Virus record (IMG/VR): IMGVR_UViG_3300028888_000044
Location: 323,539-387,538 of that record
Source of the DNA: a virus
Taxonomy: Duplodnaviria; Heunggongvirae; Uroviricota; Caudoviricetes
DNA: 64,000 nt
Direction: 5' to 3' (one strand)
Positions within the stretch are counted from its first letter, which is position 1; every line of letters begins with the position of its first letter. Below are positions 13,478 through 30,672 of the stretch, piece by piece. The notes below the pieces were generated by a model that did no database searches, had not been told where the DNA came from, and worked only from the letters and a program-made list of their open reading frames with translations. The translations under genes were made by a program, and so were the position numbers.

Positions 13478-13628
13478 AATAGTTACTGTTTTATTGTTTT
13501 TGATGGTGCAAAGATAGGGTATTTTGAGCTAATATGCAAGAAAATATTAATCTTTAACAAAACTTTAACTGATGTGTTAAATTAATGTTAAATAACCAGA
13601 AAAAGTTGCAAATACCAAATAAAAGTCG

Positions 13629-13636
13629 TATATTTG
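13629..13636 (+). promoter_or_regulatory. -7 box TAtaTTTG
   Basis: 42 nt upstream of ATG 13678; TGTTAAATTAATGTTAAAT direct repeat at 13575..13593 upstream. Confidence 0.5.
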
Positions 13637-13677
13637 CACCATCAAAATTAAACAATACATTAAAAAATATAAGAACT

Positions 13678-13992
13678 ATGACAGTAGCAGAACCCAATTT
13701 TCACAAGTTATCTGACGAATACGAAAAGCTTATCCGCAAATTTTTCAAGGTAAACAACATCAAGGAAGTTGTTTGCACCGACAAGAAAGAGCACTTCTTT
13801 GACCGTATTGAAGTAAAGAAAAACGGTACAATTACTGTGTATGCACACGGTTTGACCAAGACAACGTGGAAGAAGTTGTATTTTGATTTTACAGTTGATT
13901 ATGCTGTATGTCTTGCCAATATGGAGCACGATTTGTTCTTGCAGCAACGCCAAGGCAAACACGAGAAGTTTAACTTTTATTTTTACAATTGA
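13678..13992 (+). CDS. hypothetical protein
   Basis: ORF starting MTVAEPNF (track ORF 13585 start overlaps the promoter). Confidence 0.5.
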   Translation: MTVAEPNFHKLSDEYEKLIRKFFKVNNIKEVVCTDKKEHFFDRIEVKKNGTITVYAHGLTKTTWKKLYFDFTVDYAVCLANMEHDLFLQQRQGKHEKFNFYFYN

Positions 13993-14522
13993 TTATGAGT
14001 AAGAAGTTTTATGTCATCTTTGGTGACGGTGAATGTGAACGCGCAATAACCCCTCTTTGCGACACTGAAGACGAGGCTGTGGCAAAAGCCTATAGAGCCT
14101 CAACGAAGGTGCTCATTGCAAACAAGAAGGAGTTTTGCAAGAAGCTTCGCGAAGAAGGATTCGCCACTGATGCTCACGACAATGAGTACTATTTGTTTGG
14201 CGCTGACGTTCATTTCATCCCAAACGTATACTACGTTTCTGAAGTGGATAAGGACAACGTTCAAGAGTCCATAGCAGCTCAATTCCCAATTCAGATTGCA
14301 TCCAATAGAGAGACGAAGTTTGTTGTTTGCAGTTATGACAAGGACCATAACATCAACATCAAGTCTTTGCTTTTCGACACAGTGCAAGAATGCTTGGCAG
14401 ACTTCGTGCATTCACACTATATGGTGGTCATTCCATCACTCATTGAGGATATGGTTGGAGAGTGGCGCACAGTCTTTAACAACAAAGTGTACTTCATTGT
14501 TCAGCTCAATATCTACGCCTAA
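13989..14522 (+). CDS. hypothetical protein
   Basis: ORF 177 aa, 4-nt overlap with previous gene. Confidence 0.5.
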   Translation: MIMSKKFYVIFGDGECERAITPLCDTEDEAVAKAYRASTKVLIANKKEFCKKLREEGFATDAHDNEYYLFGADVHFIPNVYYVSEVDKDNVQESIAAQFPIQIASNRETKFVVCSYDKDHNINIKSLLFDTVQECLADFVHSHYMVVIPSLIEDMVGEWRTVFNNKVYFIVQLNIYA

Positions 14523-14754
14523 TAAGAAGTTACACATTGTAGTCCCTAAAGCTTTGGTGAAGCTTGATAATCTGCAAGTCCGTATGGCTTCAGATTATCC
14601 CTACGACAACAAACCTACCTATGACGAAGCTCGCCAAGAGATTATCAAAATCCTTGAAATGTTTGAAGATGTTAGCTACAATTAGCTAACATTTTTTTTA
14701 TGTGTTAAATAAATGTTAAACCGTCAAAAATATTTGGCGGTTTCAATAAAAAGC

Positions 14755-14780
14755 CTTATCTTTGCAGCGAGGGAAATATG
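14755..14780 (+). promoter_or_regulatory. conserved box TTATCTTTGCAGCGAGGGAAATATGC (copy b)
   Basis: Reiterated box followed by hairpin ccatcctatc..gataggatgg. Confidence 0.5.
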
Positions 14781-14840
14781 CATATATAAAAAAAAACCAT
14801 CCTATCGTGTTGATAGGATGGAAAACTATGAAAAAAGAAA

Positions 14841-15404
14841 CTACTTTTGTATAAGGAACCTCGGAATGTTGCAACCAACGAAGTTACCCAATACAATTAA
14901 AGGATAATACTTAAAAGCATATAGCTGAATCAGATAATGTTCGGCAGAGAACATATAATAAGCATCAGCAATACTGTGATACATTCCACTCAAGATGAAT
15001 GCAGCTACACCGAAAACTACTAACAGTTTGTTGCCTTGCCTACCACTATTGACGATTAACGTCATAATCAGACCACAACCAATACCCTTAAGGAAGTTAT
15101 CAAATTGACCATCAACTATTCGGTCATCAATGATATTGCTTGCCATATCGTGCTCTCCTATAACAAAAGCAACCAATGCACAACCACCGATATTCAAGAG
15201 CAGTATGCCAAGTAGCTGTAGCCATTCCTTTGGCTGTTTATAATTGAAGAATCCAGCTTGCCCAGTGTATAAAGGAAGTTTATATTCAATCACAGCAAGC
15301 AATCCAAAGGAGAAAAGTACGCTACCATACACTTGCCCAACGTTCAGATATACCGCTCCACCAAGGGCAATAAGAACACCCGATAGGATAGAAGACTTAA
15401 TCAT
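14841..15404 (-). CDS. integral membrane protein (about 6 predicted TM helices)
   Basis: Highly hydrophobic 187-aa ORF; could be a small-substrate transporter component, family not identifiable by eye. Confidence 0.5.
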   Translation of the reverse strand: MIKSSILSGVLIALGGAVYLNVGQVYGSVLFSFGLLAVIEYKLPLYTGQAGFFNYKQPKEWLQLLGILLLNIGGCALVAFVIGEHDMASNIIDDRIVDGQFDNFLKGIGCGLIMTLIVNSGRQGNKLLVVFGVAAFILSGMYHSIADAYYMFSAEHYLIQLYAFKYYPLIVLGNFVGCNIPRFLIQK

Positions 15405-15742
15405 ATCTTTTCAAGTTTAACGTATGAGTGTACGATATTAGGTACTGTGATTTCGTCTTCGTCATTCAAGCCATTGAACTCACGAATAGACTGTGCCATT
15501 GTGTCACAGTTGCTAACAAAATCAAGTGTTGGGTATTTAATCACAAACTCACTTCCCTTATAGTTAGGGCAATAGCCAAAGCCATCATATAGCTGAAAAG
15601 TCATTGTATGAGGCTTGTTGTCATTGAAGATATTGTTTGAAGCCTCGTCATTGAACTGAAACGTCTGAATGCAAATTAGTTTGCCATACAGTTTCTCTAA
15701 AATTTCTTTTGAAATAGGATTTTTTACTTTAGTCATATACAA
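15401..15742 (-). CDS. hypothetical protein
   Basis: ORF 113 aa, 4-nt overlap with downstream gene. Confidence 0.5.
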   Translation of the reverse strand: MYMTKVKNPISKEILEKLYGKLICIQTFQFNDEASNNIFNDNKPHTMTFQLYDGFGYCPNYKGSEFVIKYPTLDFVSNCDTMAQSIREFNGLNDEDEITVPNIVHSYVKLEKI

Positions 15743-16245: not shown

Positions 16246-16260
16246 ATTACTGTGTGGTTT

Positions 16261-18132
16261 TTATATTAAACTTGTGTCCTTATGCTGTTGATACATTGAC
16301 TTCTGACTTGGTACGACCTTGAAAGCACCTACCATAGTGTGATACACGAGAAGTCTCATATTGCCGCCAATGCACGTGCCACTGTTCTTGTCAATCTCGG
16401 CATCCAAAACGAGAGAGACGCACGAGAGTCCGAAGTCATCAGTTGTGAGATAGTCACGATTCTTCTCAAGTTGGAATTGCTTGAGCTTGTCAGCTCTGAA
16501 GCCAAACACGAGACTGTCACTTGTGAAACTGTCAAAACGCTTTACTTGGGAAGACACTGCATAATTGTTCTTACCTTGCATGTGCGCCTCATTGAAGTAG
16601 TCATAGCTACAGTCAATGTTTTTATCCTTAAGCATCTTATCAAAGATAATCTTTGCATTCTCTGAACACGACTTGCGTCCCTTGCAACGACTGAAGAAGA
16701 ACTCTACCTCTTCCTTGGTCAAGTCTATAGCGAAGTTACCACAAGGTGCTGAAGCAAGAACCGATGTCGCATCCAATTCGTTTGCACTGCAAACCCATTC
16801 CTTCTCTGTCTTGTCAGTTGGAACATTCTCCCTATCAGCAAAGTTTTGCTCATACTGACTGTACTGTGTGGCGTGGAACTTGTTGACGAAGAACATCGTA
16901 TTCAGTCTTTTGTGCTCAGACCTATATCCACACATACGACCAAGCAAGGCTTGTGCAGTTGCAGCAGCAGACAAGCTGTAGTCATACACTAAGTATGTAT
17001 AGTCCTTGAAGTTGCCGTGAATAGTTACACCAGCTCTGAACGCACCCTTGATTAATACGAGAAGTGGCTTGATAGGTATCTTTTGTTCCAAGAGAATCGG
17101 AAGTGTCACACCTTCGAACTTCTTGTTGAACTCAATGGCATCTATTTGTTCCTTGAGCCTATCAGAAAGCTTGTCATAGTTGAGCTTGCTTGTTGAGGCA
17201 TCCATTTGATAGACATCAAAATTATACTTCACGAAGTTACGCTCTACCAATTCCTCATTTTTGCGTGTACGCACGAAGAAGATACCGTCAATGCCATCAG
17301 ACTTGCAACGAGTCAAGCCCTCACGAAGGGCAAGCAGAATGTCTCCAACGTCCTCACAGTGTGACTTTGCATCGTGGACGAGTCCTTCATTGATGTACTC
17401 GCTGACTCCAACGTAACCACTGTTTGTTGGAAGCTCGATAATCTCCTTGCACTCATTGACATCAGATATTACCTCGCTGAAAGGCGTGGCAGATACTGAA
17501 ACAATATAAATGTTACGCGAAATAAGCTCGTTTGGATTTCTCCAATTGATGCCTTGCTTCTCCAAGAACTGTGTGAGCTTATTCTTCTTGCCGCTACCGT
17601 AATGACATTCGTCAATGAAAAGAATGGAATTGTCAATAGAGCCATCAAAGCCCATCAAGTCACTGTTCTTTAGAAGGAAGTACTTCTTCGGTGTCTTGTA
17701 CTTGAGGGAGCGCTTGCCATTGTAGGTGTTCTCTACAGTTGCATCGCTGACTTGCTTGATGACACGCTCGAACGTTTGCTCCTTGAGACCACAGTCGTTC
17801 ATTCCACAAAGGAAGAAGAACTTGTTTACCATCATAGGTTTATCCAAGTGCAATGCATTGACGATATTGACAACAGCATTAACCGCTCCAGTTTTTCCAC
17901 TTTGCATCTTTGCAATGAGAATAACGTGGTTGCGTCTTGTCTCTGCTCTATTGAAAGCCAAAAGAATGTTCTTTGCGCATTCAATTTGGGTGTCGTGGAT
18001 ATAACCATCGCACCCAATAGAGCCACTTCTGAATAAATTGTTATTAGATGATGTAATAAGATTTGTAATTACTTCTGTTTGAGTAAGAGTTTCTGTCATA
18101 GTTATTTGAATATTTTTGCAAAAATACGCCAA
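16261..18132 (-). CDS. SF2 DEAD/DEAH-box helicase-like protein
   Basis: Walker A AKMQSGKTG, DExH box FIDECH, motif III SVSATP, motif VI-like QALLGRMCGYR. Confidence 0.6.
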   Translation of the reverse strand: MAYFCKNIQITMTETLTQTEVITNLITSSNNNLFRSGSIGCDGYIHDTQIECAKNILLAFNRAETRRNHVILIAKMQSGKTGAVNAVVNIVNALHLDKPMMVNKFFFLCGMNDCGLKEQTFERVIKQVSDATVENTYNGKRSLKYKTPKKYFLLKNSDLMGFDGSIDNSILFIDECHYGSGKKNKLTQFLEKQGINWRNPNELISRNIYIVSVSATPFSEVISDVNECKEIIELPTNSGYVGVSEYINEGLVHDAKSHCEDVGDILLALREGLTRCKSDGIDGIFFVRTRKNEELVERNFVKYNFDVYQMDASTSKLNYDKLSDRLKEQIDAIEFNKKFEGVTLPILLEQKIPIKPLLVLIKGAFRAGVTIHGNFKDYTYLVYDYSLSAAATAQALLGRMCGYRSEHKRLNTMFFVNKFHATQYSQYEQNFADRENVPTDKTEKEWVCSANELDATSVLASAPCGNFAIDLTKEEVEFFFSRCKGRKSCSENAKIIFDKMLKDKNIDCSYDYFNEAHMQGKNNYAVSSQVKRFDSFTSDSLVFGFRADKLKQFQLEKNRDYLTTDDFGLSCVSLVLDAEIDKNSGTCIGGNMRLLVYHTMVGAFKVVPSQKSMYQQHKDTSLI

Positions 18133-18174
18133 AAATCTGTAAAAAGCAAAAATTCAAATACATTTAACTTGAAT

Positions 18175-18417
18175 TTAACATATTTCATAAAATTTCTTAA
18201 TACTGTCCATTATACTGAATAACTCCAAATTTGACAATGCTGTCAGCTTATAGACATAACCAAGAGGGAATTGAACCTTGCCAATTCCATCCTCGATAAA
18301 GACATTAATATCAGTTGTCCCGTAATTAACATAAACGTTTGGAATTGAAAGACGATATTGTTCCTCTTCCTTTCCATATCTTCGCATCAGCTTATGTATT
18401 CCCAATAATAGATTCAT
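18175..18417 (-). CDS. hypothetical protein
   Basis: ORF 80 aa; palindrome copy 4 lies 26 nt upstream. Confidence 0.45.
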   Translation of the reverse strand: MNLLLGIHKLMRRYGKEEEQYRLSIPNVYVNYGTTDINVFIEDGIGKVQFPLGYVYKLTALSNLELFSIMDSIKKFYEIC

Positions 18418-18460: not shown

Positions 18461-18562
18461 CTAATCATAATGAGCAAAAGCACCAGCTTTCACAAGCTAA
18501 TGCTTTTTATTACCCCATAAAAAAAAAAGGAGATGATATTATGGAGGTATGAAAAAAAGTGT

Positions 18563-18651
18563 TGGTAGAGATGGATTTGAACCACCGAAGCCTCATAAGA
18601 GGCGGCTGTGCCACTAAACACAGCCCCATTTGACCGCTTTGGTATCTACCG
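18563..18651 (-). tRNA. type-II tRNA-like gene, atypical anticodon loop (tRNA-like 1)
   Basis: revcomp cggtaga-ta-cca-aagcggtcaaa-tgg...gcctcttatgaggc(long variable arm)-ggtgg-ttcaaat-ccatc-tctacca-a. It has U8, a 3-bp D stem, GG in the D loop and a 5-bp T arm with TTCAAAT loop. The 1:72 pair is C:A. The anticodon region ctgtg-tttagtgg-cacag gives an 8-nt loop containing TAG. Confidence 0.5.
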
Positions 18652-18653
18652 AA

Positions 18654-18745
18654 TGGTTGATAGAGAGGGATTCGAACCCCCGAAGCCTCCGAAGAGGCGG
18701 TTGAGCTACTAACACAACCCCATTTGACCGCTTTGGTATCTATCG
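18654..18745 (-). tRNA. type-II tRNA-like gene with encoded CCA (tRNA-like 2)
   Basis: About 80% identical to tRNA-like 1; cgataga...ggggg-ttcgaat-ccctc-tctatca-a-cca. The anticodon stem has a T:T mismatch and a loop ttagtag. Confidence 0.5.
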
Positions 18746-18838: not shown

Positions 18839-19381
18839 TTACTTCAAATACAAGTTCTCCAAACGGTTGTTGAACTTATTACCATCTTTATGGAAAAGAC
18901 GCTGGCCTTCTATTGGACCATTGAATGTTTCATAGACAAGATAACAAGCTGTAAGCTGCACTTGCCCCCAAATACAGTGGCTCAAGCGAACTATAGGATT
19001 CTTGTGGTACTTGTTTGCAGTCTGCTTCAAAACATGCTTGGTATATTTGTTGCGGATACGACCAAGGTTTGAAGCCTCATAGTTAGTAAATGGATAATCC
19101 ATTGTCCTCCAAAACTCAATTTCAACCACGTCATAGTTGCTCACAAGCCATCCATATTCATCAGAAAGATAGTTGTTGATGGCATCATAATCGTCAGCTT
19201 CAATGTAATTTGGAAGCTCTACCTCGGTTGGAAGGGTGATGTCTTCACCATCAGTCTCCCATACAATGTTAATAGCTTTATATTTACAATCCATAGTGAT
19301 ATTGTTTTTTAACGCTGCAAAGATAGGTAATAATCGGCAATGCTGCAACTTTTTTGACACCATTAACAAAACTTTAACCAA
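18839..19381 (-). CDS. HNH homing endonuclease (free-standing)
   Basis: C-terminal HKDGNKFNNRLENLYL HNH motif; immediately upstream of the tRNA-like pair. Confidence 0.55.
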   Translation of the reverse strand: MVKVLLMVSKKLQHCRLLPIFAALKNNITMDCKYKAINIVWETDGEDITLPTEVELPNYIEADDYDAINNYLSDEYGWLVSNYDVVEIEFWRTMDYPFTNYEASNLGRIRNKYTKHVLKQTANKYHKNPIVRLSHCIWGQVQLTACYLVYETFNGPIEGQRLFHKDGNKFNNRLENLYLK

Positions 19382-19435
19382 TATGTTAAATTAATGTTAA
19401 AGTACCAGAAATATTTGGAATTGTCGTGAAAAAGC

Positions 19436-19467
19436 TCTATCTTTGCAGCGAGGGAAATAGCGTACAG
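19436..19467 (+). promoter_or_regulatory. conserved box CTATCTTTGCAGCGAGGGAAATAGCGTACAGC (copy c)
   Basis: Exact reiteration; preceded by TGTTAAATTAATGTTAAAG at 19383..19402. Confidence 0.5.
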
Positions 19468-19525
19468 CAAAAAAAATGGCATCATCTCATTTCGAGATAA
19501 TGCCATTCCTTAATGATGTCAGAAC

Positions 19526-19663
19526 TTATGATACTTGAGCTTGACAATCTACGCCTTCCCAATCACACCACAAACAGTGATAGTGAATATGACCATCGTC
19601 ATAGTTATAACCGTCCGATTCAAGCTTTTCCCCACAAATTGGGCAATAACGTACTTCTTCCAT
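19526..19663 (-). CDS. small zinc-ribbon protein
   Basis: MEEVRYCPICGEKL...HCLWCDW, two CxxC pairs; boundaries approximate. Confidence 0.35.
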   Translation of the reverse strand: MEEVRYCPICGEKLESDGYNYDDGHIHYHCLWCDWEGVDCQAQVS

Positions 19664-19996: not shown

Positions 19997-20280
19997 AGTT
20001 TACTTGAATTTGGTTATTAGCTCAATTCTCACCGTTAGTCATAAACACTTCAATAAGCTTGGGAATAAAGCCACAAAAGGCTACAATACCGAAAAATACG
20101 AATGGATGCATCATAATAGTATTGGTTTTTATTGTTAGTACTTGTTTTTGTTTCACTGTGCAAATATAGTGCTTTTAATTGACACTGCAAACAAAAACAG
20201 TAAGTTTAACAAAAGTTTAACTGTATTGTTAAAAAATGTAAAATGGCACTTACTTGCCACTGTAAGTGCCATCGAGTCAA

Positions 20281-20853: not shown

Positions 20854-21016
20854 AGTTTTATTTGTTTTTAATGTTAGTAATTGTTTTAATTTCACGGTGC
20901 AAAGATAGTGAAAAAATCAATACGCCACAACTTTTTTGACACCATTAACAAAACTTTAACCAATATGTTAAATTAGTGTTAAAGTACCAGAAATATTTGG
21001 AATTGTCACCAAAAAA

Positions 21017-21050
21017 CACTATCTTTGCAGCGAGGGAAAGAGCGTACAGC
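21017..21050 (+). promoter_or_regulatory. conserved box CACTATCTTTGCAGCGAGGGAAAGAGCGTACAGC (copy d)
   Basis: Exact reiteration; 20966..20984 TGTTAAATTAGTGTTAAAG lies upstream; GTCATCAGATGGCAC + A-run lies downstream. Confidence 0.5.
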
Positions 21051-21189
21051 AACTTGTCATCAGATGGCACAAAAAAAAGGACACCCGACAGTAGTCGGAT
21101 GCCCTCCCAAACAAATCTTACTAACCTTAAAAACACGTTGTAGCTCAGATGGGACTCGAACCCATACGGTCGAATGACCAAGGGATTTT

Positions 21190-21970: not shown

Positions 21971-22050
21971 AAGTCCCTCGCGTCTACCAATTCCGCCACT
22001 GAGCCATCATTTTTGCTATTATATAAAATAAATATAACAAACAAAAAAAA

Positions 22051-22233: not shown

Positions 22234-22300
22234 TGTTGTAAGTTTCAAATTAAAAGGGGTGCTTGCTTTTCTTCGGAAGCACCCCAACAGTGAAAATTAG

Positions 22301-23160: not shown

Positions 23161-23822
23161 AATCGTGTTGTTTATTAATTTTTACACCGCAAAGATACAG
23201 GAGATTTTTGGATTTTCCAAGAAATTTTACGTCTTTAACATTATTTTAACATTTCAGTTAACAAATGTTACTGTACGATACCTAACACCCAAGAAGCCTT
23301 AAAGTACTTCAAAGCTTGGGTCGGTGTCATTGGCTTTGGTGTTTTTTCCATTGTAGGCTGTGAAGCAAGAAGCCCACGTTTGCCTCTATAGCACACCTTC
23401 CAATTTGTGAACCTTTCGGTTATTGTTACGATTTCTTTGTCCATAGTTTTATATGTTTTTTAATTTTTACGGTGCAAAGATAGTGAAAATATCAATACCC
23501 TCAAAGAAATTTCAGTTATTTAACCAGTTTTTAACATATTTGTTAATTGAATTTAACAAAAAAAAATGGACACAGTTTCACAACTATATCCATTTTATCT
23601 TTTTACCTTGTGCCACTTTCACAAGCTCGTCACACGGTAACACATCTTTCATCTTATCGAGTGTTGTGTTTTATTACACTTTTTTCATTAATTTTGCTTT
23701 TCAGTTGATAAAAATACTCGATAAAAAATCCTTTGCCATCACTCTTTCCTCTAATATAAATATATACAATTTTTTATTAAAATCAAAACTTTTTCATATT
23801 TTTTTTAATTTTTTTTTGTTTA

Positions 23823-24062
23823 TTAAATATACTCCAATACCTCACAGTAGATTCTTTCCCTCTCTTCGTCAGTCAAGACAAGCTCTTCACAGTTCTCGTC
23901 TTCGAAAGGATTACCGCACCATACACCTATTTTACCATCCTCGTTCACTACGAGACAGTCCACACGAGCACCATTGTGACGAATGTCGAAGTCACTTACA
24001 ATGATGCAGTTGTCTTCATATTCTTCAAAAAGGTTGCAAATACAAGTTTCAACACTTCCCAT
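23823..24062 (-). CDS. hypothetical acidic Cys-containing protein
   Basis: ORF 79 aa. Confidence 0.45.
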   Translation of the reverse strand: MGSVETCICNLFEEYEDNCIIVSDFDIRHNGARVDCLVVNEDGKIGVWCGNPFEDENCEELVLTDEERERIYCEVLEYI

Positions 24063-24251
24063 AACGTTACTGTTTTCTTTTTTGATGTTAATACTTTATA
24101 GTGTTGCCACACACCATCATTTACGCACTGTTTGGCAAGCTCTTCAGCTTCTTCCTTTGTTTTGAACTTCGTTGGGCTAATACACACACCTTGCTTGGTC
24201 AAAGCAATCAAGAACCATTTTTCATTTGAATTGTTATTAGTTGTTGCCATA
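23996..24251 (-). CDS. hypothetical protein
   Basis: ORF starting MATTNNNSNEKW; minus -7 box near 24272..24285. Confidence 0.45.
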
Positions 24252-24391
24252 CATCTTTGTTTTTTTTCGTGGTGCAAAGTTATGAAATTAATAGCATATC
24301 AGCAAGAAATAATACTGTATTAACAAATTTTTAACAGTATAGTTAAATCCAAGTTAAAGTGCTTAAAATATTTTGTACTCTCACTGAAAAG

Positions 24392-24426
24392 CACTATCTT
24401 TGCAGCGAGGGAAAGAGCGTACAGCT
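24392..24426 (+). promoter_or_regulatory. conserved box CACTATCTTTGCAGCGAGGGAAAGAGCGTACAGC (copy e)
   Basis: Exact reiteration followed by TTGTCATCAAAAGGCAC + A-run and a hairpin that serves as minus-strand terminator for tRNA-Gln. Confidence 0.5.
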
Positions 24427-24512
24427 ACTTGTCATCAAAAGGCACAAAAAAAGCATCGAGCATAATGCCCGATGCAAAAACATTAAAAAACAATAACTAT
24501 TAACAAAGCTTG

Positions 24513-24585
24513 TTGTCCCTCCAAGACTCGAACTCGGACTTTCAGACTCAAATTCTGACGTGCTAACCGACTACACCAAGGGACA
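24513..24585 (-). tRNA. tRNA-Gln(UUG)
   Basis: revcomp tgtccct-tg-gtgt-agtcggtta-gcac-g-tcaga-atTTGag-tctga-aagt-ccgag-ttcgagt-cttgg-agggaca-a. Canonical cloverleaf with anticodon TTG, U33 and A37. Confidence 0.8.
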
Positions 24586-24599: not shown

Positions 24600-25390
24600 T
24601 TATAAATATATAGAAAAATAAAATATAAAGCAAATAGAAAAGAAAAAAAAAGTGCCGATGGGAGCCAACGTGCCAAGGGACGTGCGATTGTGGGGACCTT
24701 TCTCATCTTCATAGGTCCGCACCGTGCAGTGCGTAGGGGCGATTGTTGTAGCTCTCATCGGCTTTTACCCAAGGGCCGACTGTGCGGCATAGTTATGCGG
24801 CATTAACTATCCTCACTCATTTATTTTGCCGCTAATAATGAGATTATTGGAACCTTGGTTTCAATGGGCATTCTCGTGGACTCGATGGCGTAGAAAGGCG
24901 CAAGTATCTGCTTGTCGGAGTGGCACAGTGACCGCGTAAAGCGTATTATAGTTTGTGCAGACTCGGAATAATGTCTCTCGTGGGAATCGCGCAAGCATAA
25001 ACGCGCGGTAAAATGAGACTTACGTAATGCGTTGTAGCACCTTGGATAGGATATAATCGCCTATCCACGAAAATGCCCGAAAATTTTATATTTCCTTTTA
25101 GCTTGAATACCGATTTCTATCTTGTCGATGTACATAACTTGTGCGCTTGTTGAGCTAATATTATACACGCAGTTTGTTCAATGCACCAAGTATAGAAGAA
25201 ATTAACAGTTTTAATTGGGCTGTCCCCTAATGTGCTGCCTCATAGCTGTAGGATTTACAAGTTACACATACCTTTAGATTCATTTCTCAATTAATAATTT
25301 TGATTTACCCTCAAAGGGGTCGGTCTCTTGCATTCATCGGTATGTCGGTCAGTTAAGTTGTTGATTATTACCCCACTGTTTGGTTGGGCT
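24600..25390. ncRNA. candidate large structured non-coding RNA (GC-rich ORF-free island)
   Basis: About 790 nt with no ORF over 60 aa on any frame and markedly higher GC than the flanks. It has many local hairpins, e.g. gccgactgtgcggc and ggataggatataatcgcctatcc, and sits between tRNA-Gln and a promoter-driven 41-aa ORF. Confidence 0.35.
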
Positions 25391-25391
25391 A

Positions 25392-25517
25392 TCACTTTGC
25401 CCAATAACTACCCTCTTTGGCGAAGATGCTGTAACGAATCTCGTCCTTACCAAACTTGTGCGGTACTGCGAAAACGCGCTTGCTTTCTACTGCTGAATTA
25501 AAACGTCCTTTTGCCAT
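25392..25517 (-). CDS. hypothetical 41-aa protein
   Basis: MAKGRFNSAVESKRVF...; minus -7 box CAAAgaTA about 40 nt upstream at about 25558..25565; coordinates within 2 nt. Confidence 0.35.
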   Translation of the reverse strand: MAKGRFNSAVESKRVFAVPHKFGKDEIRYSIFAKEGSYWAK

Positions 25518-25611
25518 AGTTGTTAGTTGTTTTTATTTGTTTTTATTAATTTTGACGATGCAAAGATAGGGCTTTTATCGTTACCTTGCAAGAAATTTTA
25601 GGTCTTTAACA

Positions 25612-25902
25612 TTATTTTAACACTTCGTGAACAATATTCAAACTTGTTACAACTAAATGAGTGTCATTTGTATTATAAGTGCGTTCACTATACGTGTACT
25701 CACAATACATAATGTCATTGCCATCTGAATTGGTTATCTTCACAACACACTTGTTTTCATTTGGGTCAATACTCTCAACAACGATTGACAGATTTTCACC
25801 CAAAACTTTTTTTAAGTTTGCCACTAAAGATTGTGGAAGATAGGAAATAACCATTCCCACACCAATTCCCAAACGATTGAAAATATCTTGTAATACTGTC
25901 AT
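25612..25902 (-). CDS. hypothetical protein
   Basis: ORF 96 aa. Confidence 0.5.
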   Translation of the reverse strand: MTVLQDIFNRLGIGVGMVISYLPQSLVANLKKVLGENLSIVVESIDPNENKCVVKITNSDGNDIMYCEYTYSERTYNTNDTHLVVTSLNIVHEVLK

Positions 25903-26159
25903 ACCTTATTTATTATTTATGCTTGCGAATAAATACATAAGATGTAAAAGAAGCTGAAGAACATTGGTCTTTCTTTTCCTCTTCAACAATTGGAGATATG
26001 TAATAAGCATTATCCATTATCTCAAGTTTTGTTCCGTTTGCCATAGTTGTTACTGTTTTTTAATTTAGTAACACAAAGATATAATAAATAATAATCAAAT
26101 CCAAGAAATAACTGTGAAAAAATATTAATGTGAATAGATTTTAACATAAGGTACTTATT

Positions 26160-26225: not shown

Positions 26226-26927
26226 TTAGGCATACACAAACGTGATTGACTTGCTTGGGTCATAATCCATAACGTCAGTGCCATCAGATGCCATCTTGAG
26301 AAGAGCGTGAATGCCTTTCGTGGTCGCTGTAATGTTCTCACCGATACGCTCGTTGAGCTGCTTGATGCCCAAACGTTTGCCATCTTTCGAGCCATAGACC
26401 ACTTCCTTGCCCTTATACATTGGATTTGCATAGAGCTGCGCTTCAACACACCCATCAGCTATCTTGTTAATGGCGGTGAGCATATCATCCATTGCATAGG
26501 CAAGCTTCTCAATGTAGCCGTAAATGTCCTTGTCAGACTTCTTCGCTATCTTCTCTATTTTCGCTGCCGCATCAGTTGCCTTGTGGTGAGCTTCCACAAA
26601 TTCCTCGAAGTGTGGCTGAATATGCTCGTCACGAACGATTGTGCGCCAAATGTTGCCCCACTGCTTGTATCCGTGACGGAAGTAAGCCATATAGCTCTTG
26701 GAAAGCTTGAAGCTCGTGTTGATGTTTGCCACTTGCATTGCCAAGAGACGCATGGCGGTGACACTGCGCTTCTTCTTCGCTGCCTTCTTCTCGGCTGCTT
26801 CTGCTGCCTTCTTCTCGGCTCTCTTCATTGCCTTGTACTCACGAAGTGATACCTTGCTTCCATCACTCAAATAGATTGTTGTCTCGTCCAAATAATCGGA
26901 CACACTGAAAGAACGATTCTTTGCCAT
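26226..26927 (-). CDS. hypothetical Lys/Ala-rich protein
   Basis: Start moved to MAKNRSF at 26927; minus -7 box CAAAgtTA at 26973..26980 (46 nt upstream). Confidence 0.5.
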   Translation of the reverse strand: MAKNRSFSVSDYLDETTIYLSDGSKVSLREYKAMKRAEKKAAEAAEKKAAKKKRSVTAMRLLAMQVANINTSFKLSKSYMAYFRHGYKQWGNIWRTIVRDEHIQPHFEEFVEAHHKATDAAAKIEKIAKKSDKDIYGYIEKLAYAMDDMLTAINKIADGCVEAQLYANPMYKGKEVVYGSKDGKRLGIKQLNERIGENITATTKGIHALLKMASDGTDVMDYDPSKSITFVYA

Positions 26928-27100
26928 AGTGCTATTGTTTTTAATGTTAGTAATTGTTTTAATTTCACTGCGCAAAGTTACGCATTTTTTTTGAATCCAC
27001 CAAATTTTTTGGCAAAAAAATGATGTCTATTAAGTTTATTTAACAATTGTGTTAAATTCAGGTTAAAGTCCTTAAAATATTTTGTACTCTCACGAAAAAG

Positions 27101-27129
27101 CACTATCTTTGCAGCGAGGGAAAGAGCGT
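27101..27129 (+). promoter_or_regulatory. conserved box CACTATCTTTGCAGCGAGGGAAAGAGCGT (copy f)
   Basis: Reiterated box, directly followed by palindrome copy 6. Confidence 0.5.
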
Positions 27130-27320: not shown

Positions 27321-27809
27321 TCACTCATCATCCTCATCTTCCTCGTCAGACTGCTTATGATAGTCTTCATCATTCTCGGTGCTCCAAACAACCTTGCCAT
27401 CTTCTTGGTCATAGATTTCAATGTCATCACTGTTAGAGTCACCACGCTCATAATCGGCAACTGCTGAAGCAATAACATCGTCCAAATCGTCAGAAGAATA
27501 CAGTATATCGTCTTCTTGGCCTACAATGCGCTGACAATAGCGGTCTTGGTCTTGGTACTCATAATCGCGTGTGCGCTTCTTGTAAAACGTCTCATAAGAG
27601 TCGCTAATGCCAAGCAAATCAATCAACTGTTCGGGGTCGTGCTCGAAAAGGTCATCAAGCTCGGTCGCTTCAATTCCATCGGGGTAAGAATCTTCCAAAA
27701 GCTCTTGGAGCTTTTCAATTTCGTCCTCGGTGAAAAGGTCATAGACAATTTGAGCACCACGAGACCAATTAATATCGGTCAAATCCATTTCTTTATATAC
27801 TTTAATCAT
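27321..27809 (-). CDS. hypothetical very acidic protein
   Basis: ORF 162 aa with DEEDEDDE tail; minus -7 box at 27852..27859. Confidence 0.5.
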   Translation of the reverse strand: MIKVYKEMDLTDINWSRGAQIVYDLFTEDEIEKLQELLEDSYPDGIEATELDDLFEHDPEQLIDLLGISDSYETFYKKRTRDYEYQDQDRYCQRIVGQEDDILYSSDDLDDVIASAVADYERGDSNSDDIEIYDQEDGKVVWSTENDEDYHKQSDEEDEDDE

Positions 27810-27938
27810 ATCAGTAGAAATTAGAAGTTAATAATTATTGTTTTGATGGTGCAAAGTTAGTAAAAATATCAATACCACCCAAATATTTCATCAAAAAAAT
27901 GAAGATTATTCACATTATTTAACATATCAGCTATATAT

Positions 27939-28145: not shown

Positions 28146-28672
28146 TTAAACTTCAAGCTCCACAAGAGGCACCCAAATTTTGGTACTGCCTACTCTCTCA
28201 TTGGGGGTATGCCAACTGCTTTCATCGGCATCGTTTGGAGTGTCAAAGTAATGGCGGTGTGCCACAAAATCCTTCATACGTGCCTTCTTCTCTGCTTCAG
28301 TATGTACGCCCATAACGTCCCAAATTTCTTCGTCACTCACAGTAAAGTGATTGCCCTTAAGTGGACCGTACACGAGCATCGAGACTTGCGTGGTCTCTTG
28401 CTTGTTGGCATCGAGCTTCACCACGATATGCGCGGTAGAATCATTGTTGGTATTCATACCCACTTTGACAACCTTGAAGAACGTGGTGTGATTGCCTTGA
28501 ATGCACTTGAAAAAACTGTATTCAACGTACACAGTGCGCACTTCCTTAAACTTTGGATGCTTGTCATAATCATCCTTATTAGCCTTCCACCAAGAATTGG
28601 CTGCGGTAGTGGTTGGAAACTCTGCAACTGCATTTGCAGTGCCATCGGTGTAATAAACCTTGATTTGATACA
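28146..28672 (-). CDS. hypothetical protein
   Basis: Start moved to MYQIKVYY (28672); minus -7 box CAAAgtTA at 28730..28737. Confidence 0.5.
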
Positions 28673-28840
28673 TAGCTTTGTTGTTTTTTAATGTTAGTAC
28701 TATTGTTTGTTTTTGCGGTGCAAAGTTACGCATTTTTTTTTAATTGTGCAATAGTTTACCCCAAAAAAATGCATTTTGTTTAGATTATTTAACATTTAAC
28801 CTATTTTCAGCTATAAATGACTGTTCAGAGCTGTATTCTT

Positions 28841-28863
28841 TTTCCCTCGCTGCAAAGATAGTG
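28841..28863 (-). promoter_or_regulatory. conserved box (copy h, minus orientation)
   Basis: revcomp reads CACTATCTTTGCAGCGAGGGAAA. Confidence 0.5.
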
Positions 28864-28991
28864 GTTTTTTCAATACCATCCAAATTTTTTGGCAAGAAAA
28901 TGCATTTTGTTTAGATTATTTAACATTTGACCTATAGATACAAAAAAAATGCCCACACTTTTCAGTGTAGGCATTGCAAGCATCTGCCGCG

Positions 28992-29336
28992 TTACTCTTC
29001 GTCTTCAGTGCCGATTTCAATCAACGCGCAAGCACAAGAAGGGAGAGAAGACTGTGCTTTGTGATAGACCGCCATCATAAAATCGTCAAAGACACTACGA
29101 GCGCGAATGGCATCAATCAAGTGCTCCAAATTCTTGATGCGGAGTGTCTCGATTCCGCGTGTCTCTTCACCCCACTTGATAGTGACGTGCTTTGTCACTT
29201 TGTCTTGAACAAGTGTGTAGGAGTCGGCTTCGTGGTGCTCAAACTTTGCAAGCACAACAACCTCAGTGTTGTAGCTCTTCATCAACTCAACGATAGCGGC
29301 AACAAGTGCCATCTTGTAAAGACCTTTGTAAAACAT
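28992..29336 (-). CDS. hypothetical protein
   Basis: ORF 114 aa; minus -7 box at 29395..29402. Confidence 0.5.
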   Translation of the reverse strand: MFYKGLYKMALVAAIVELMKSYNTEVVVLAKFEHHEADSYTLVQDKVTKHVTIKWGEETRGIETLRIKNLEHLIDAIRARSVFDDFMMAVYHKAQSSLPSCACALIEIGTEDEE

Positions 29337-29469
29337 AGCTTTTAGTTTTTTAATGTTAGTAACTGTTGTTTAATTTTCACGGTGCAAAGATAGTGCTTTT
29401 TTCAATACCATCCAAATATTTTGCAAAGAAAATGATTTTTATTAACATCATTTAACATTTGGAGCTATA

Positions 29470-29487
29470 GATACTTATTTTAGTACC
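29470..29487. repeat. palindrome variant GATACTTATTTTAGTACC (copy 8)
   Basis: Degenerate copy (15/18). Confidence 0.6.
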
Positions 29488-29540
29488 CAAATATATAATG
29501 AAAAATGCTCCACACTTTTCAGTGTGGAGCATCCTCTGCG

Positions 29541-30083
29541 TTAGTCGCGCTCATAGCGCTTATTGCCTTGCCAAATGCGAACGATGTTCGTGACGGTGAT
29601 GTCCTTGACCTCAACAACCTCTTCGGGAGTAAGACCGTATTCGAGCTGCTTCTTGCAAACTGAATGGCTGCGAAGGAAGGTTTTGATTTCCTCAACCTCT
29701 TCGGGAGTAGCTTCGCGCCCATCCACGAAATACGTGCTTGTTACCTTGCTATTGCCGTTAGAGGCGATGCGAAGATAAGTTACTGTGGGGTCGGTGTCCT
29801 TCGTGAGGAAATAAGGATAATCGCTCCACGAACGGCCTGTTGGCTTGTCCTCTTCGTAAGGGTGATTTTCTACGTCAATACCCAACTCCTTGGCTCTGCG
29901 CTCTATTGTGGAGCTGTAGCCTCTTCCTATAGCGATGTTGTGGTAGTGACTTGCCTTCGTCACACGTCCGTAATACTTGTTGCCCCTCTTGTTCATTGTG
30001 GGGACAGTCAGAATATCCATCTCTACACCGAAAGTGTTGCGCTTGATGGATTTAACTACACACTCTAAAGTCATTTTTGTCAT
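29541..30083 (-). CDS. hypothetical protein
   Basis: ORF 180 aa; minus -7 box CAAAgtTA at 30131..30138 (48 nt upstream). Confidence 0.55.
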   Translation of the reverse strand: MTKMTLECVVKSIKRNTFGVEMDILTVPTMNKRGNKYYGRVTKASHYHNIAIGRGYSSTIERRAKELGIDVENHPYEEDKPTGRSWSDYPYFLTKDTDPTVTYLRIASNGNSKVTSTYFVDGREATPEEVEEIKTFLRSHSVCKKQLEYGLTPEEVVEVKDITVTNIVRIWQGNKRYERD

Positions 30084-30672
30084 AGCTTTGTTGTTTTAAT
30101 GTTAGTAACTGTTGTTTAATTTTCACGGTGCAAAGTTACGCATTTTATTTGATACCACCAAATATTTTGCCAAAAAAATGCATTTTATTAACATCATTTA
30201 ACAGTTCAGCTATATTTCAGTTATATCCAAAAATTTCGCGTATAAGCGCTTTTCTATTTCAAATGATAAACTTATCCACTGAATAATTAAAATGCAAAAT
30301 AGAGCCATTTCTGCGCAAATATGGGCATATTTCCGTATATACGCGCGTATATGCGTATGCGTGGGGGTATGGATGGGTAGTGATGGGGCATATACCTAAC
30401 TATTGGGGGCGATGCCTCCCCCACCCTCCCCCTCCTACGCATCCTCTCCCCCCGACCGAGTTTTTGGGGGCTTACCAAACGGCAACGGTTTCTTGAATAA
30501 AATTTTCCAGAAATTTTTGTCTTTTTGAGGAAGGGGGTGGGGTGTTTTAATTATTGAGTGGTTTTAAAAAAATTCCAGAAAAATTTTTCTATAATTTTAT
30601 AGAGCTGATATTATAATTAATTTTGGTATTTTTTTATCGTTTCATATATTTATATAAAAATACATTTATAAT

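What the first reader, a model, noticed from the sequence alone, without database searches (positions are those of the whole stretch)
13575..30210. TGTTAAAT-N4-TGTTAAAG direct repeats 40-110 nt upstream of many promoters
Pairs of TGTTAAA half-sites spaced 11 bp apart recur upstream of promoters on both strands. Positions are 12716, 13575, 14701, 19383, 20966, 23241, 24341 (variant), 25596, 27041 (variant), 28781, 28911, 29431 and 30185. Several carry a further conserved extension, AAAACTTTAACCAATATGTTAAATTAATGTTAAAGTACCAGAAATATTTGG.

One-helical-turn spacing of direct repeats is typical of an activator or repressor binding site. This could mark a temporal regulon. The -33 TTTG element is not obviously conserved at these promoters.
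Basis: seen in the sequence. Interest (0 to 1): 0.55.

Follow-up and report, generated by a model that had tools for sequence, protein, structure and literature searches.

The report
Bacteroidota upstream promoter repeats in phage
The paired TGTTAAA repeats are real, but they are this phage's copies of an upstream promoter element that Bacteroidota bacteria carry on their own ribosomal RNA promoters and that many unrelated phages of these hosts share, so they most likely recruit host RNA polymerase rather than a phage-encoded regulator.

Summary
The repeats exist and are far beyond chance. There are 17 same-strand GTTAA pairs at 11-bp spacing, against 0.36 expected, all between 12.1 and 27.1 kb.

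They are not at variable distances. The heptamers start exactly 54 and 43 nt upstream of the T of a TAnnTTTG -7 box, 12-13 nt upstream of an invariant -33 nTTG. Seven further promoters (26.0-30.2 kb) carry the heptamer one 11-bp step further out, at -65.

That is more than 118 viral contigs and 120 bacterial contigs, almost all Bacteroidota. Matches include 16S rRNA operon promoters, Bacteroides phage B124-14 and 5-6 kb gut Microviridae.

It is therefore a host-type upstream promoter module. The literature on Bacteroides phage promoters already calls such sequences "UP elements". The best mechanism is recruitment of host RNA polymerase on one DNA face, probably through the two alpha C-terminal domains. 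An unknown host activator remains a serious rival, and a phage-encoded regulator is unlikely.

The "temporal class" idea is untested. It is plausible, because the element is confined to the small-ORF/tRNA region. This is an ordinary feature and a new member of a known kind.

The parts
12086..12147 (-). Type-1 promoter module: AGTTAAG/GGTTAAT heptamers (12130-12147), -33 CTTG, -7 TAATTTTG. Drives the 81-aa ORF 11792-12037.
12663..12724 (-). Type-1 module: TGTTAAA x2 (12707-12724), -33 TTTG, -7 TATCTTTG. Orphan promoter (initial transcribed sequence GCAGCGAGGGAA) facing the terminator of the + strand ORF 12384-12548.
13509..13570 (-). Type-1 module: AGTTAAA/TGTTAAA, -33 CTTG, -7 TATCTTTG. Drives the 64-aa ORF 13283-13477. 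Back-to-back with the 13575 module.
13575..13636 (+). Type-1 module: TGTTAAA x2, -33 GTTG, -7 TATATTTG. Drives the ORF starting at 13678.
14703..14764 (+). Type-1 module: TGTTAAA x2, -33 TTTG, -7 TATCTTTG. Orphan promoter facing the terminator of the minus-strand gene 14841-15404.
18119..18180 (-). Type-1 module: TGTTAAA/AGTTAAA, -33 TTTG, -7 TATTTTTG. Drives the ResIII-type helicase gene (16261-18132).
19318..19379 (-). Type-1 module: GGTTAAA/TGTTAAT, -33 GTTG, -7 TATCTTTG. Drives the HNH-endonuclease-like ORF (18842-19294).
19384..19445 (+). Type-1 module: TGTTAAA x2, -33 TTTG, -7 TATCTTTG. Orphan promoter.
20161..20222 (-). Type-1 module: AGTTAAA/TGTTAAA, -33 TTTG (19-nt spacer), -7 TATATTTG.
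20900..20961 (-). Type-1 module: GGTTAAA/TGTTAAT, -33 GTTG, -7 TATCTTTG. Drives the 190-aa ORF 20284-20853.
20966..21027 (+). Type-1 module: TGTTAAA x2, -33 TTTG, -7 TATCTTTG. Orphan promoter facing the terminator of the intron-containing tRNA unit.
23190..23251 (-). Type-1 module: TGTTAAA x2, -33 CTTG, -7 TATCTTTG. Drives ORFs 22885-23160, 22301-22849 and 22051-22287, and probably the split tRNA.
23475..23536 (-). Type-1 module: TGTTAAA/GGTTAAA, -33 TTTG (19-nt spacer), -7 TATCTTTG. Drives the 58-aa ORF 23268-23444.
24275..24336 (-). Type-1 module: TGTTAAA/TGTTAAT, -33 CTTG, -7 TAACTTTG. Drives ORFs 23996-24250 and 23823-24062.
24341..24402 (+). Type-1 module: AGTTAAA x2, -33 TTTG (19-nt spacer), -7 TATCTTTG. 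Orphan promoter facing the terminator of tRNA-Gln.
25561..25622 (-). Type-1 module: TGTTAAA x2, -33 CTTG, -7 TATCTTTG. Lies upstream of about 900 nt without long ORFs and of tRNA-Gln (24512-24585).
27050..27111 (+). Type-1 module: TGTTAAA/GGTTAAA, -33 TTTG (19-nt spacer), -7 TATCTTTG. Orphan promoter.
26074..26146 (-). Type-2 module: single TGTTAAA starting 65 nt upstream of the -7 box, -33 CTTG.
26973..27045 (-). Type-2 module: TGTTAAA at -65 with a degenerate partner, -33 TTTG. Drives the 233-aa ORF 26229-26927.
27852..27924 (-). Type-2 module: TGTTAAA at -65, -33 TTTG. Drives the 162-aa ORF 27324-27809.
28721..28794 (-). Type-2 module: TGTTAAAT at -66, -33 ATTG. Drives the 175-aa ORF 28149-28673.
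28853..28925 (-). Type-2 module: TGTTAAA at -65, -33 TTTG. Initial transcribed sequence GCAGCGAGGGAA. Sits in tandem 132 nt upstream of the 28728 promoter.
29385..29457 (-). Type-2 module: TGTTAAA at -65 and TGTTAAT at -55 (10-bp spacing), -33 TTTG. Drives the 114-aa ORF 28995-29336.
30131..30203 (-). Type-2 module: TGTTAAA at -65 and TGTTAAT at -55, -33 TTTG. Drives the 180-aa ORF 29544-30083.

Best explanation
The TGTTAAA pairs are the upstream part of host-type (Bacteroidota primary sigma factor, sigma-A) promoters, not operators for a phage regulator.

Each promoter is a fixed module: [R-TGTTAAA-n]x2 with an 11-bp period, then 6 variable nt, an A-rich block, (T)TTG at -33, 19-20 nt, and TAnnTTTG at -7. 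The published numbering places the T of TAnnTTTG at -12. On that numbering the heptamers occupy about -66..-60 and -55..-49. A variant class shifts one 11-bp step to about -77..-71.

Inferred mechanism: the two heptamers lie on one face of the helix and act as an UP-element-like docking site for host RNA polymerase. Most probably each alpha-subunit C-terminal domain binds one heptamer. This would raise polymerase recruitment without any phage protein.

The phage would thereby give its small-ORF/tRNA region (12-30 kb) strong promoters that work immediately on infection. This is the same device the hosts use at rRNA P1 promoters, and the same logic as T4 early promoters with UP elements.

- Shown: the anatomy, the register, and the distribution in hosts and phages.
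- Inferred: the binding partner, the stimulatory effect and the early timing.
For: 1. Fixed register in the window. 17 promoters have heptamers starting at exactly -54 and -43 from the -7 box. 7 have them at -65 (with or without -55). The intervening sequences have diverged.
2. Pair spacing is far beyond chance.
4. Gaps of 5-14 nt to -33 were allowed, yet 12-14 nt accounts for 128 of 133 viral hits and 117 of 123 genome hits.
5. Spacing controls: an N5 spacer gives 12 loci and N3 gives 55, against more than 118 for N4. With N3 the proximal gap shifts to 13, so the distal site keeps its place.
6. In promoters of the fetched loci that were not selected for the repeat, GTTAA peaks at -29 and -18 from the -33 TTTG. 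The counts are 15 and 13 of 95 in genome loci, and 27 and 24 of 284 in viral loci, against backgrounds of 0.5 and 1.9 per position.
7. Host rRNA promoters carry it. 16S rRNA follows in L246 (Duncaniella muris), L253 and L316. 27 of 123 genome hits share the rRNA-type leader, mostly at contig ends or scaffold gaps.
8. Bacteroides phage B124-14 has four such promoters. Two gut Microviridae carry the complete module in non-coding DNA.
9. A Bacteroides phage promoter in common use (P_BfP1E6) is described as having 'UP elements' (bioRxiv 10.1101/2025.03.18.644028, citing Whitaker 2017).
10. The alpha C-terminal domain of 8dkc_A keeps the E. coli DNA-binding residues, as LSVRALNCL and NFGKKSL. One search identifies 8DKC as P. 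gingivalis RNAP. A second close match, 9n9p_A, also keeps them; its organism was not established.
11. TSS numbering is taken from PMC6847099. The T4 early-promoter analogy is taken from PMC2988021.
Against: - No binding or activity data exist for this sequence. The 'UP element' label in the literature is by analogy, and I could not read Whitaker 2017 to confirm that it refers to these heptamers.
- Canonical alpha-CTD reads A/T tracts through the minor groove. The invariant G of GTTAA, present in all 34 heptamers of the 17 type-1 pairs, looks more like base-specific recognition by a transcription factor.
- The heptamers lie about one helical turn further upstream (-49..-66) than E. coli UP subsites (-38..-59).
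- A separate A-rich block at about -42..-37 could be the true proximal UP subsite. That would leave three sites for two alpha-CTDs.
- Host occurrences are not restricted to rRNA. They include an ABC-transporter operon, small membrane proteins and regulators.
- The fetched loci used for the 'unselected' promoter test were chosen because they contain the element, so their other promoters may not be independent.
Confidence: 0.55

Rival explanations
1. The heptamer pair is the binding site of a conserved, abundant host transcription activator. Examples would be two winged-helix or HTH monomers bound head-to-tail, or one protein with two reading heads. It would activate from one DNA face, as Fis does at E. 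coli rRNA promoters. Phages would exploit that host factor.
For: - The GTTAA core is invariant, including a G, in all 17 type-1 pairs.
- The unit is a 7-bp repeat plus a 4-bp A/T-rich spacer with an 11-bp period. This is the architecture of OmpR/PhoB-type sites such as the pho box CTGTCATAWAWCTGTCAY (my own knowledge).
- The same heptamer also occurs in reverse orientation at a different register: TTAAC at 13 nt upstream of the -33 TTTG in 64 of 284 viral-locus promoters. Orientation- and distance-dependent classes are typical of activators such as MarA/SoxS (my own knowledge).
- A separate A-rich block next to -33 could already be the alpha-CTD site.
- Pairs predominate over single sites.
Against: - No such factor is known to me or was found in the searchable literature.
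- The targets are heterogeneous and include constitutive rRNA promoters, lytic phages and Microviridae across several orders of the phylum. This argues against a condition-specific regulon.
- Unlike pho boxes, the site does not replace the -33 element.
Confidence: 0.3
2. A phage-encoded small DNA-binding protein, activator or repressor, binds the direct repeats and defines a temporal regulon.
For: - The element is confined to one contiguous region (12.1-30.2 kb) of small ORFs and tRNAs. Promoters elsewhere in the window have a different upstream architecture.
- Phages of these hosts can encode DNA-binding proteins aimed at this promoter zone. Viral locus L115 encodes a 320-aa protein with a MerR-like HTH and an alpha-CTD-like domain.
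- A phage protein that later shuts these promoters off through the same sites is not excluded.
Against: - The identical element in the identical register occurs at host rRNA promoters and in hundreds of unrelated contigs.
- It occurs in B124-14.
- It occurs in Microviridae with no annotated regulator.
- No HTH, sigma, anti-sigma or ADP-ribosyltransferase domain was recognised in the 48 window ORFs scanned. This is weak evidence, because most of them are ORFans.
- There is no alpha-CTD-like ORF in the window.
Confidence: 0.07
3. The repeats have no function of their own. They are carried along in recently duplicated or shuffled promoter cassettes, as with the promoter-early-stem-loop cassettes of T4-type phages, or they merely reflect A/T-rich curved DNA.
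For: - Several promoter regions are clearly paralogous: repeat families D1-D9 and 8 copies sharing an invariant initial transcribed sequence.
- Indels relative to the 95%-identical relative fall at promoter cassettes.
Against: - Between the conserved blocks the copies have diverged, while GTTAA stays at exactly -53 and -42.
- The same register is found in unrelated phages and bacteria with unrelated flanks.
- The N3, N4 and N5 spacing controls argue for selection on geometry.
Confidence: 0.03

Closest known systems
'UP elements' of Bacteroides 16S rRNA promoters and Bacteroides phage promoters (P_BfP1E6; Whitaker et al. 2017, as cited in bioRxiv 10.1101/2025.03.18.644028)
   Same: - Same host phylum and same -33/-7 core.
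- Phage B124-14, a Bacteroides fragilis phage, has four promoters with TGTTAAA-N4-TGTTAAA in the same register.
- Bacteroidales rRNA P1 promoters have the element too.
- The literature says the phage promoter has 'UP elements'.
   Different: - I could not read the original paper, so the identity of its 'UP elements' with these heptamers is inferred.
- That P_BfP1E6 derives from B124-14 is from my memory only.
- This window is a different, much larger T4-like phage with no close relative in INPHARED.
- The window uses the element at 24 promoters in three registers.
E. coli rrnB P1 UP element (two alpha-CTD subsites, about -38 to -59)
   Same: - It lies upstream of the sigma region-4 element.
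- It is A/T-rich.
- It has two subsites about 11 bp apart on one face.
- It is present at rRNA promoters.
- It needs no extra factor.
- The alpha-CTD DNA-binding residues are conserved in P. gingivalis RNAP alpha (8dkc_A).
   Different: - The sites here are about 10 bp further upstream.
- They have a defined heptamer with an invariant G rather than A-tracts.
- Alpha-CTD binding is untested.
T4 early promoters (sigma-70 core plus UP elements; Alt/ModA modify alpha R265), PMC2988021
   Same: - A large T4-like phage; a prohead core protease S77 is present.
- It equips a region of many small non-essential-type ORFs and tRNAs with very strong host-type promoters carrying upstream elements.
- The logic is immediate takeover of host polymerase.
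   Different: - Different host phylum and different promoter code.
- No Alt/ModA-like enzyme was recognised in this window.
- Timing was not measured.
Pho box / OmpR-PhoB family direct-repeat sites
   Same: Two 7-bp direct repeats separated by a 4-bp A/T-rich spacer (11-bp period). TGTTAAA matches TGTCATA at 5 of 7 positions.
   Different: - Pho boxes replace the -35 element and define a stress regulon.
- Here the -33 element is intact 12 nt downstream, and the targets include rRNA operons, phages and microviruses.

Membership tests
Bacteroidota sigma-A (sigma-ABfr) -33/-7 promoter | -7 element TAnnTTTG (TAHHTTTG) | tested here: met
   All 24 modules have TA[ACT][ACT]TTTG followed by C or T. 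Consensus definition from PMC6847099.
Bacteroidota sigma-A (sigma-ABfr) -33/-7 promoter | -33 TTTG about 19-21 nt upstream of the -7 element | tested here: met
nTTG lies at a 19-20 nt spacer in all 24: TTTG 14, CTTG 6, GTTG 3, ATTG 1.
Bacteroidota sigma-A (sigma-ABfr) -33/-7 promoter | Transcription starts 4-5 nt after the -7 element | not testable with these tools
   No RNA data. ORFs start 27-56 nt downstream of most gene-driving copies.
UP element (alpha-CTD docking site) | A/T-rich sequence immediately upstream of the sigma region-4 element, about -40 to -60 | tested here: inconclusive
   The 18-bp pair is A/T except for the two G's. It lies at about -49..-66, one turn further out than in E. 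coli. A separate A-rich block sits at about -42..-37.
UP element (alpha-CTD docking site) | Two subsites about one helical turn apart, in fixed phase with the core promoter | tested here: met
   11-bp period and fixed -54/-43 register. The N4 spacer is preferred over N3 and N5 across IMG/VR.
UP element (alpha-CTD docking site) | Present at the host's rRNA promoters and other strong promoters | tested here: met
   16S rRNA lies downstream in L246, L253 and L316. 27 of 123 genome hits have the rRNA-type leader.
UP element (alpha-CTD docking site) | Host alpha-CTD has the DNA-binding '265 determinant' | tested here: met
   8dkc_A (P. gingivalis RNAP) and 9n9p_A keep the R, N, C and G, K, S equivalents.
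UP element (alpha-CTD docking site) | Bound by alpha-CTD and stimulates transcription without other factors | not testable with these tools
   Needs footprinting or in vitro transcription with wild-type and CTD-deleted alpha.
OmpR/PhoB-type activator site (pho-box-like) | Two 7-bp direct repeats with a 4-bp A/T spacer | tested here: met
   Consensus AAR-TGTTAAA-nTAR-TGTTAAA.
OmpR/PhoB-type activator site (pho-box-like) | Site overlaps or replaces the -35-type element | tested here: not met
   An intact -33 nTTG lies 12-13 nt downstream of the proximal heptamer.
OmpR/PhoB-type activator site (pho-box-like) | Restricted to a functionally coherent regulon | tested here: not met
   Targets include rRNA operons, ABC transporter, membrane proteins, regulators, phages and Microviridae.
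   It is found in more than 118 viral and 120 bacterial contigs with unrelated flanks.
   None was recognised among 48 ORFs. Most are ORFans, and only 64 kb of the genome is visible.

The most novel reading that the evidence does not exclude
The TGTTAAA heptamer may be a sequence-specific promoter 'address' read by something not yet characterised. That could be an unknown phylum-wide Bacteroidota activator, or an unusual base-specific binding mode of alpha-CTD.

Phages would then encode their transcription programme by the register and orientation of the same heptamer:
- forward pair at -54/-43 (12-27 kb);
- forward at -65 (26-30 kb);
- reverse TTTAACA abutting -33 (promoters at 1.7, 7.3 and 35-56 kb).

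The orphan, terminator-facing promoters with the invariant start GCAGCGAGGGAA would be a further functional class, for example insulators, antisense RNAs or priming RNAs. This class is shared with other Bacteroidota phages.
Probability: 0.2. Interest if true: 0.6.

Novelty: new member of a known kind. Interest (0 to 1): 0.3.

Why it matters
**For annotating this phage**
- The result turns an apparent phage regulon into a practical promoter map. It gives 24 host-type promoters with predicted start sites in the small-ORF/tRNA region.
- It predicts that these genes need no phage factor, so they are probably early.

**More generally**
- The data show that the upstream element used in Bacteroides synthetic biology is a strictly phased 11-bp heptamer lattice.
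- The lattice is conserved across Bacteroidia, Flavobacteriia and Sphingobacteriia, at rRNA promoters, and in very different phages.
- Its binding partner has not been demonstrated.
- A defined heptamer with a defined register makes one question directly testable: do Bacteroidota have a sequence-specific UP element or an unknown global activator?

Tried and rejected
- The literal pattern TGTTAAAT-N4-TGTTAAAG matches none of the listed sites. It was replaced by the 11-bp form.
- A megablast of 12-31 kb against INPHARED found no related phage. The only hit was an 80-nt match to Prevotella Lak megaphages inside a tRNA intron region.
- The search for related loci with the helicase returned only the 95%-identical relative (IMGVR_UViG_3300028805_000076). 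That is too close for phylogenetic footprinting.
- Full-text searches for the motif string, for Bacteroides UP elements and for a Bacteroidota RNAP-promoter structure found no paper that prints or analyses TGTTAAA repeats.
- Whitaker 2017 and Chen 2007 are not held. No supplements are held for two toolkit papers.
- Rfam found only one tRNA in the window. It found nothing for the 24.6-25.5 kb non-coding stretch or for the tRNA intron.
- Rfam on 18 host loci found RNA genes only for the rRNA cases.
- tblastn for an alpha-CTD-like protein in the window was negative.
- Pfam and PHROG scans of 48 window ORFs found no DNA-binding regulator, sigma factor or ADP-ribosyltransferase.
- IHF, CRP and Fis consensus sequences were compared by eye, from memory, and do not fit.
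- The pho-box resemblance was considered and rejected as membership, because of the position relative to -33 and the spectrum of targets.

Full report
**1. Observation**

It matches none of the listed sites.

The sequence does contain TGTTAAA-N4-TGTTAAA, with 11 bp from start to start. Exact copies lie at 12707(-), 13575(+), 14703(+), 19384(+), 20966(+), 23234(-) and 25605(-). One- or two-mismatch copies lie at 13553, 18163, 19362, 20205, 20944, 23519, 24319, 24341 and 27050. In all there are 19 hits against 5.3 expected, and no shuffle out of 100 reached 19.

The heptamer by itself is hardly enriched: 49 against 36 expected. The signal is in the pairing. Same-strand GTTAA cores 11 bp apart occur 17 times, against a mean of 0.36 and a maximum of 3 in 200 dinucleotide-preserving shuffles. 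A 10-bp spacing occurs 7 times, and every other spacing from 5 to 45 bp occurs 2 times or fewer. All 17 pairs lie between 12130 and 27067.

The 51-nt "extension" is exact at 19368 and has one mismatch at 20950.

**2. Anatomy in the window**

The region is full of Bacteroidota-type promoters, with TTTG at -33 and TAnnTTTG at -7. I anchored every TAhhTTTG box and looked upstream.

- **Type 1 (17 promoters).** The two heptamers start exactly 54 and 43 nt upstream of the T of the -7 box. The promoters are 12093-, 12670-, 13516-, 13629+, 14757+, 18126-, 19325-, 19438+, 20168-, 20907-, 21020+, 23197-, 23482-, 24282-, 24395+, 25568- and 27104+.
- **Type 2 (7 promoters).** A good TGTTAAAT starts 65 nt upstream (66 in one), with a degenerate partner 10 bp closer. 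The promoters are 26081-, 26980-, 27859-, 28728-, 28860-, 29392- and 30138-.

The slots at -43, -54 and -65 form an 11-bp lattice tied to the core promoter. The sequences between the conserved blocks differ from copy to copy.

Published numbering for Flavobacterium places the T of TAnnTTTG at -12, with the start site 4-5 nt after the box (PMC6847099). On that numbering the heptamers occupy about -66..-60 and -55..-49, or -77..-71 for type 2.

It consists of the reverse-complemented heptamers of the minus-strand partner, then the plus-strand pair, then the A-rich block and the -33 element.

No promoter outside 12.1-30.2 kb has heptamers in these slots.

The genes served are mostly small ORFans. 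They also include a ResIII helicase, an HNH endonuclease, a SprT-like protein, a formate/nitrite-transporter-like protein and tRNA genes. The rest of the window marks a large T4-like phage, with a prohead core protease S77, RNA ligases and NAPRTase.

**3. The element is not specific to this phage**

I scanned for the composite TGTTAAA-N4-TGTTAAA-N(5-14)-TTTG-N(18-22)-TAnnTTTG.

- The bacterial hits are almost all Bacteroidota: Bacteroides, Prevotellaceae, Muribaculaceae/Duncaniella, Alistipes, Capnocytophaga, Chryseobacterium, Flavobacteriaceae, Pedobacter and Olivibacter.

The taxon restriction is partly built into the pattern, but the geometry is not. Gaps of 5-14 nt were allowed, yet 12-14 nt accounts for 128 of 133 viral matches and 117 of 123 genome matches.

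Changing the spacer gives far fewer hits. N5 gives 12 loci and N3 gives 55, against more than 118 for N4. With N3 the proximal gap moves to 13, so the distal heptamer keeps its position.

A consensus from 48 mutually diverged instances reads AAR-TGTTAAA-nTAR-TGTTAAA-N6-AAAAnA-TTTGG-N20-TAyCTTTGCA.

In promoters of the fetched loci that were not selected for the repeat, GTTAA still peaks at -29 and -18 from the -33 TTTG:

| Loci | At -29 | At -18 | Promoters | Background per position |
|---|---|---|---|---|
| Genome | 15 | 13 | 95 | 0.5 |
| Viral | 27 | 24 | 284 | 1.9 |

Pairs predominate over single sites. One caveat applies: these loci were fetched because they contain the element, so their other promoters may not be independent.

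**4. Host and other phage contexts**

- Rfam places 16S rRNA downstream of the element in L246 (Duncaniella muris DSM 103720; promoter at 5674, 16S at 6166-7698) and in L253. L316 shows the P1 leader, a second promoter and the 16S 5' end.
- 27 of 123 genome hits share the same leader (GCACTCGC...). Most stop at contig ends or scaffold gaps, as expected for rRNA operons.
- Other host hits precede an ABC-transporter ATPase with a palindromic leader, a small membrane protein in Flavobacteriaceae, a probable phosphate transporter (named from the sequence by eye), candidate regulators and prophage-like genes.
- Bacteroides phage B124-14 has four promoters with the same architecture.
- Two gut Microviridae (MT135381 and MZ089795) carry the complete module in non-coding DNA. 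They are 5.8 and 6.0 kb, with capsid, pilot and replication genes annotated.

A phage-specific regulator cannot explain this distribution.

**5. Mechanism**

What is shown is a pair of identical heptamers, one helical turn apart, in fixed phase with the core promoter. The element is conserved at strong host promoters and is borrowed by unrelated phages.

The most economical reading is an UP-element-like docking site for host RNA polymerase, with one alpha C-terminal domain per heptamer.

In support:
- Chain 8dkc_A, which one search identifies as P. gingivalis RNAP, and a second close match, 9n9p_A, retain the residues that contact DNA in E. coli. They appear as LSVRALNCL and NFGKKSL, which correspond to R265, N268, C269 and G296, K298, S299.
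- A recent preprint says that the widely used Bacteroides phage promoter P_BfP1E6 contains "UP elements", citing Whitaker 2017.
- The T4 precedent is close. T4 early promoters combine excellent core elements with UP elements to capture host polymerase at once (PMC2988021).

Against this reading:
- The invariant G.
- A position one turn further out than E. coli UP subsites.
- An additional A-rich block next to -33, which could be the real proximal subsite.

These points keep an unknown, abundant host activator alive as a rival (0.3). The 7+4 direct-repeat design is that of OmpR/PhoB sites. However, the intact -33 element and the heterogeneous targets fail the pho-box membership tests.

The phage-regulator model gets 0.07 and a pure duplication artefact gets 0.03. 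That these are early promoters is an inference. It rests on factor-independence and on the kind of genes served.

**6. Comparison and novelty**

The finding is a new member of a known kind: host-type promoters with upstream elements in a Bacteroidota phage.

Three things seem not to be spelled out in the papers I could search:
- the exact heptamer;
- its 11-bp lattice;
- its spread across several classes of the phylum and into Microviridae.

I could not read the primary paper, so I do not claim these as new.

**7. What led nowhere**

- No close phage was found in INPHARED.
- Only a 95%-identical relative was found in IMG/VR.
- No paper prints the motif.
- Rfam gave no hit for the odd non-coding stretches.
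- No regulator-like protein and no alpha-CTD-like protein was found in the window.

**8. Side observations**

- **Orphan promoters.** Eight promoter copies share an invariant initial transcribed sequence, TTTGCAGCGAGGGAA. Six of them have no ORF of 50 aa or more within 200 nt and fire head-on into the terminator of the convergent gene or tRNA. Of the other two, 12217+ has a 54-aa ORF starting 167 nt downstream, and 28860- lies in tandem upstream of another promoter. Similar orphan promoters (GCAGTGGGAA...) occur in three other loci, L333, L338 and L205. In L205 one faces a tRNA-Leu.
- **Reverse heptamer.** Promoters elsewhere in the window carry the heptamer in reverse (TTTAACA), ending 7 nt upstream of -33. 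This arrangement is also common in other Bacteroidota phages.

Noticed in passing
window 12217(+), 12670(-), 14757(+), 19438(+), 21020(+), 24395(+), 27104(+), 28860(-); also L333, L338, L205: Eight full-consensus promoters share an invariant initial transcribed sequence, TTTGCAGCGAGGGAA. Six have no ORF of 50 aa or more within 200 nt and fire head-on into the A-run plus hairpin that terminates the convergent gene or tRNA. 12217+ has a 54-aa ORF 167 nt downstream, and 28860- sits in tandem upstream of another promoter. Four are the back-to-back partner of a gene-driving promoter. Three carry a 15-nt near-palindrome, TGYCATCWGATGRCA. Similar orphan promoters (GCAGTGGGAA...) occur in unrelated loci; in L205 one is antisense to tRNA-Leu. 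Function unknown (antisense RNA, insulator, primer RNA or mobile cassette).
   Followed up: partly
window promoters with -7 box at 1691(+), 7263(+), 35035(-), 37130(-), 38982(-), 47479(-), 55923(-); many viral loci such as L178, L138, L002: A second promoter architecture uses the same heptamer in reverse orientation (TTTAACA, often a pair 10-11 bp apart), ending 7 nt upstream of the -33 nTTG. TTAAC lies 13 nt upstream of the -33 TTTG in 64 of 284 viral-locus promoters. The A3/T3 end of the heptamer falls at almost the same position (about -49/-50) in both orientations.
   Followed up: partly
window ~21140-22010 (-), ORF 21396-21890 (-): This looks like a split tRNA gene. A tRNA 5' half lies near 21960-22010 and a 3' half near 21140-21170, separated by about 800 nt that encode an HNH-like endonuclease. 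The 80-nt stretch 21178-21257 matches Prevotella Lak megaphages at 85% identity. Neither ARAGORN nor Rfam calls it.
   Followed up: partly
window 18561-18745 (-): Two adjacent 91-92-nt tRNA-like genes that are 86% identical to each other. ARAGORN calls one with a 4-base anticodon and the other as tRNA-Thr(agt). Rfam does not call either at its gathering score. They may be type II (long variable arm) or otherwise unusual tRNAs.
   Followed up: no
window ~24600-25520 (-): About 900 nt of comparatively G+C-rich sequence without long ORFs lies between promoter 25568(-) and tRNA-Gln (24512-24585). No Rfam match at E <= 1. It may be a structured RNA or a long tRNA leader.
   Followed up: partly
L115 8695-9657 (-) (IMG/VR contig): A 320-aa phage protein with an N-terminal MerR/excisionase-like HTH, a coiled-coil-like middle and a C-terminal domain. 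The C-terminal domain is most similar to the alpha-CTD of chain 8dkc_A (P. gingivalis RNAP; E = 1e-15) and keeps the R265 and N268 equivalents. It could be a phage-encoded alpha-CTD mimic aimed at upstream promoter DNA. No counterpart exists in this window.
   Followed up: partly
window 13101-13475 and 19522-19656 versus L066: Compared with the 95%-identical relative (IMGVR_UViG_3300028805_000076), whole small genes are present or absent, with breakpoints at promoter cassettes. This recalls the promoter/stem-loop-mediated shuffling described for T4-type phages.
   Followed up: no
window 11349, 18439, 26146, 27131: Four copies of a 25-nt palindromic repeat, AAGGTACTTAATTAAGTACCCTA (repeat family D14), lie in intergenic DNA near gene ends.
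   Followed up: no
window 14844-15404 (-); 62763-63905 (+); 48446-55591 (+): Three unusual cargo genes. One is a formate/nitrite-transporter-like protein (Pfam E = 7e-16). One is a prohead core protease S77 with a weak intein-splicing match (E = 1e-3), which suggests an intein. One is a 2381-aa protein with WG beta-repeats.
   Followed up: no
window 12-30 kb versus the rest: G+C is 35-42% in the promoter-rich small-ORF/tRNA region, against 28-33% in most of the rest of the window.
   Followed up: no
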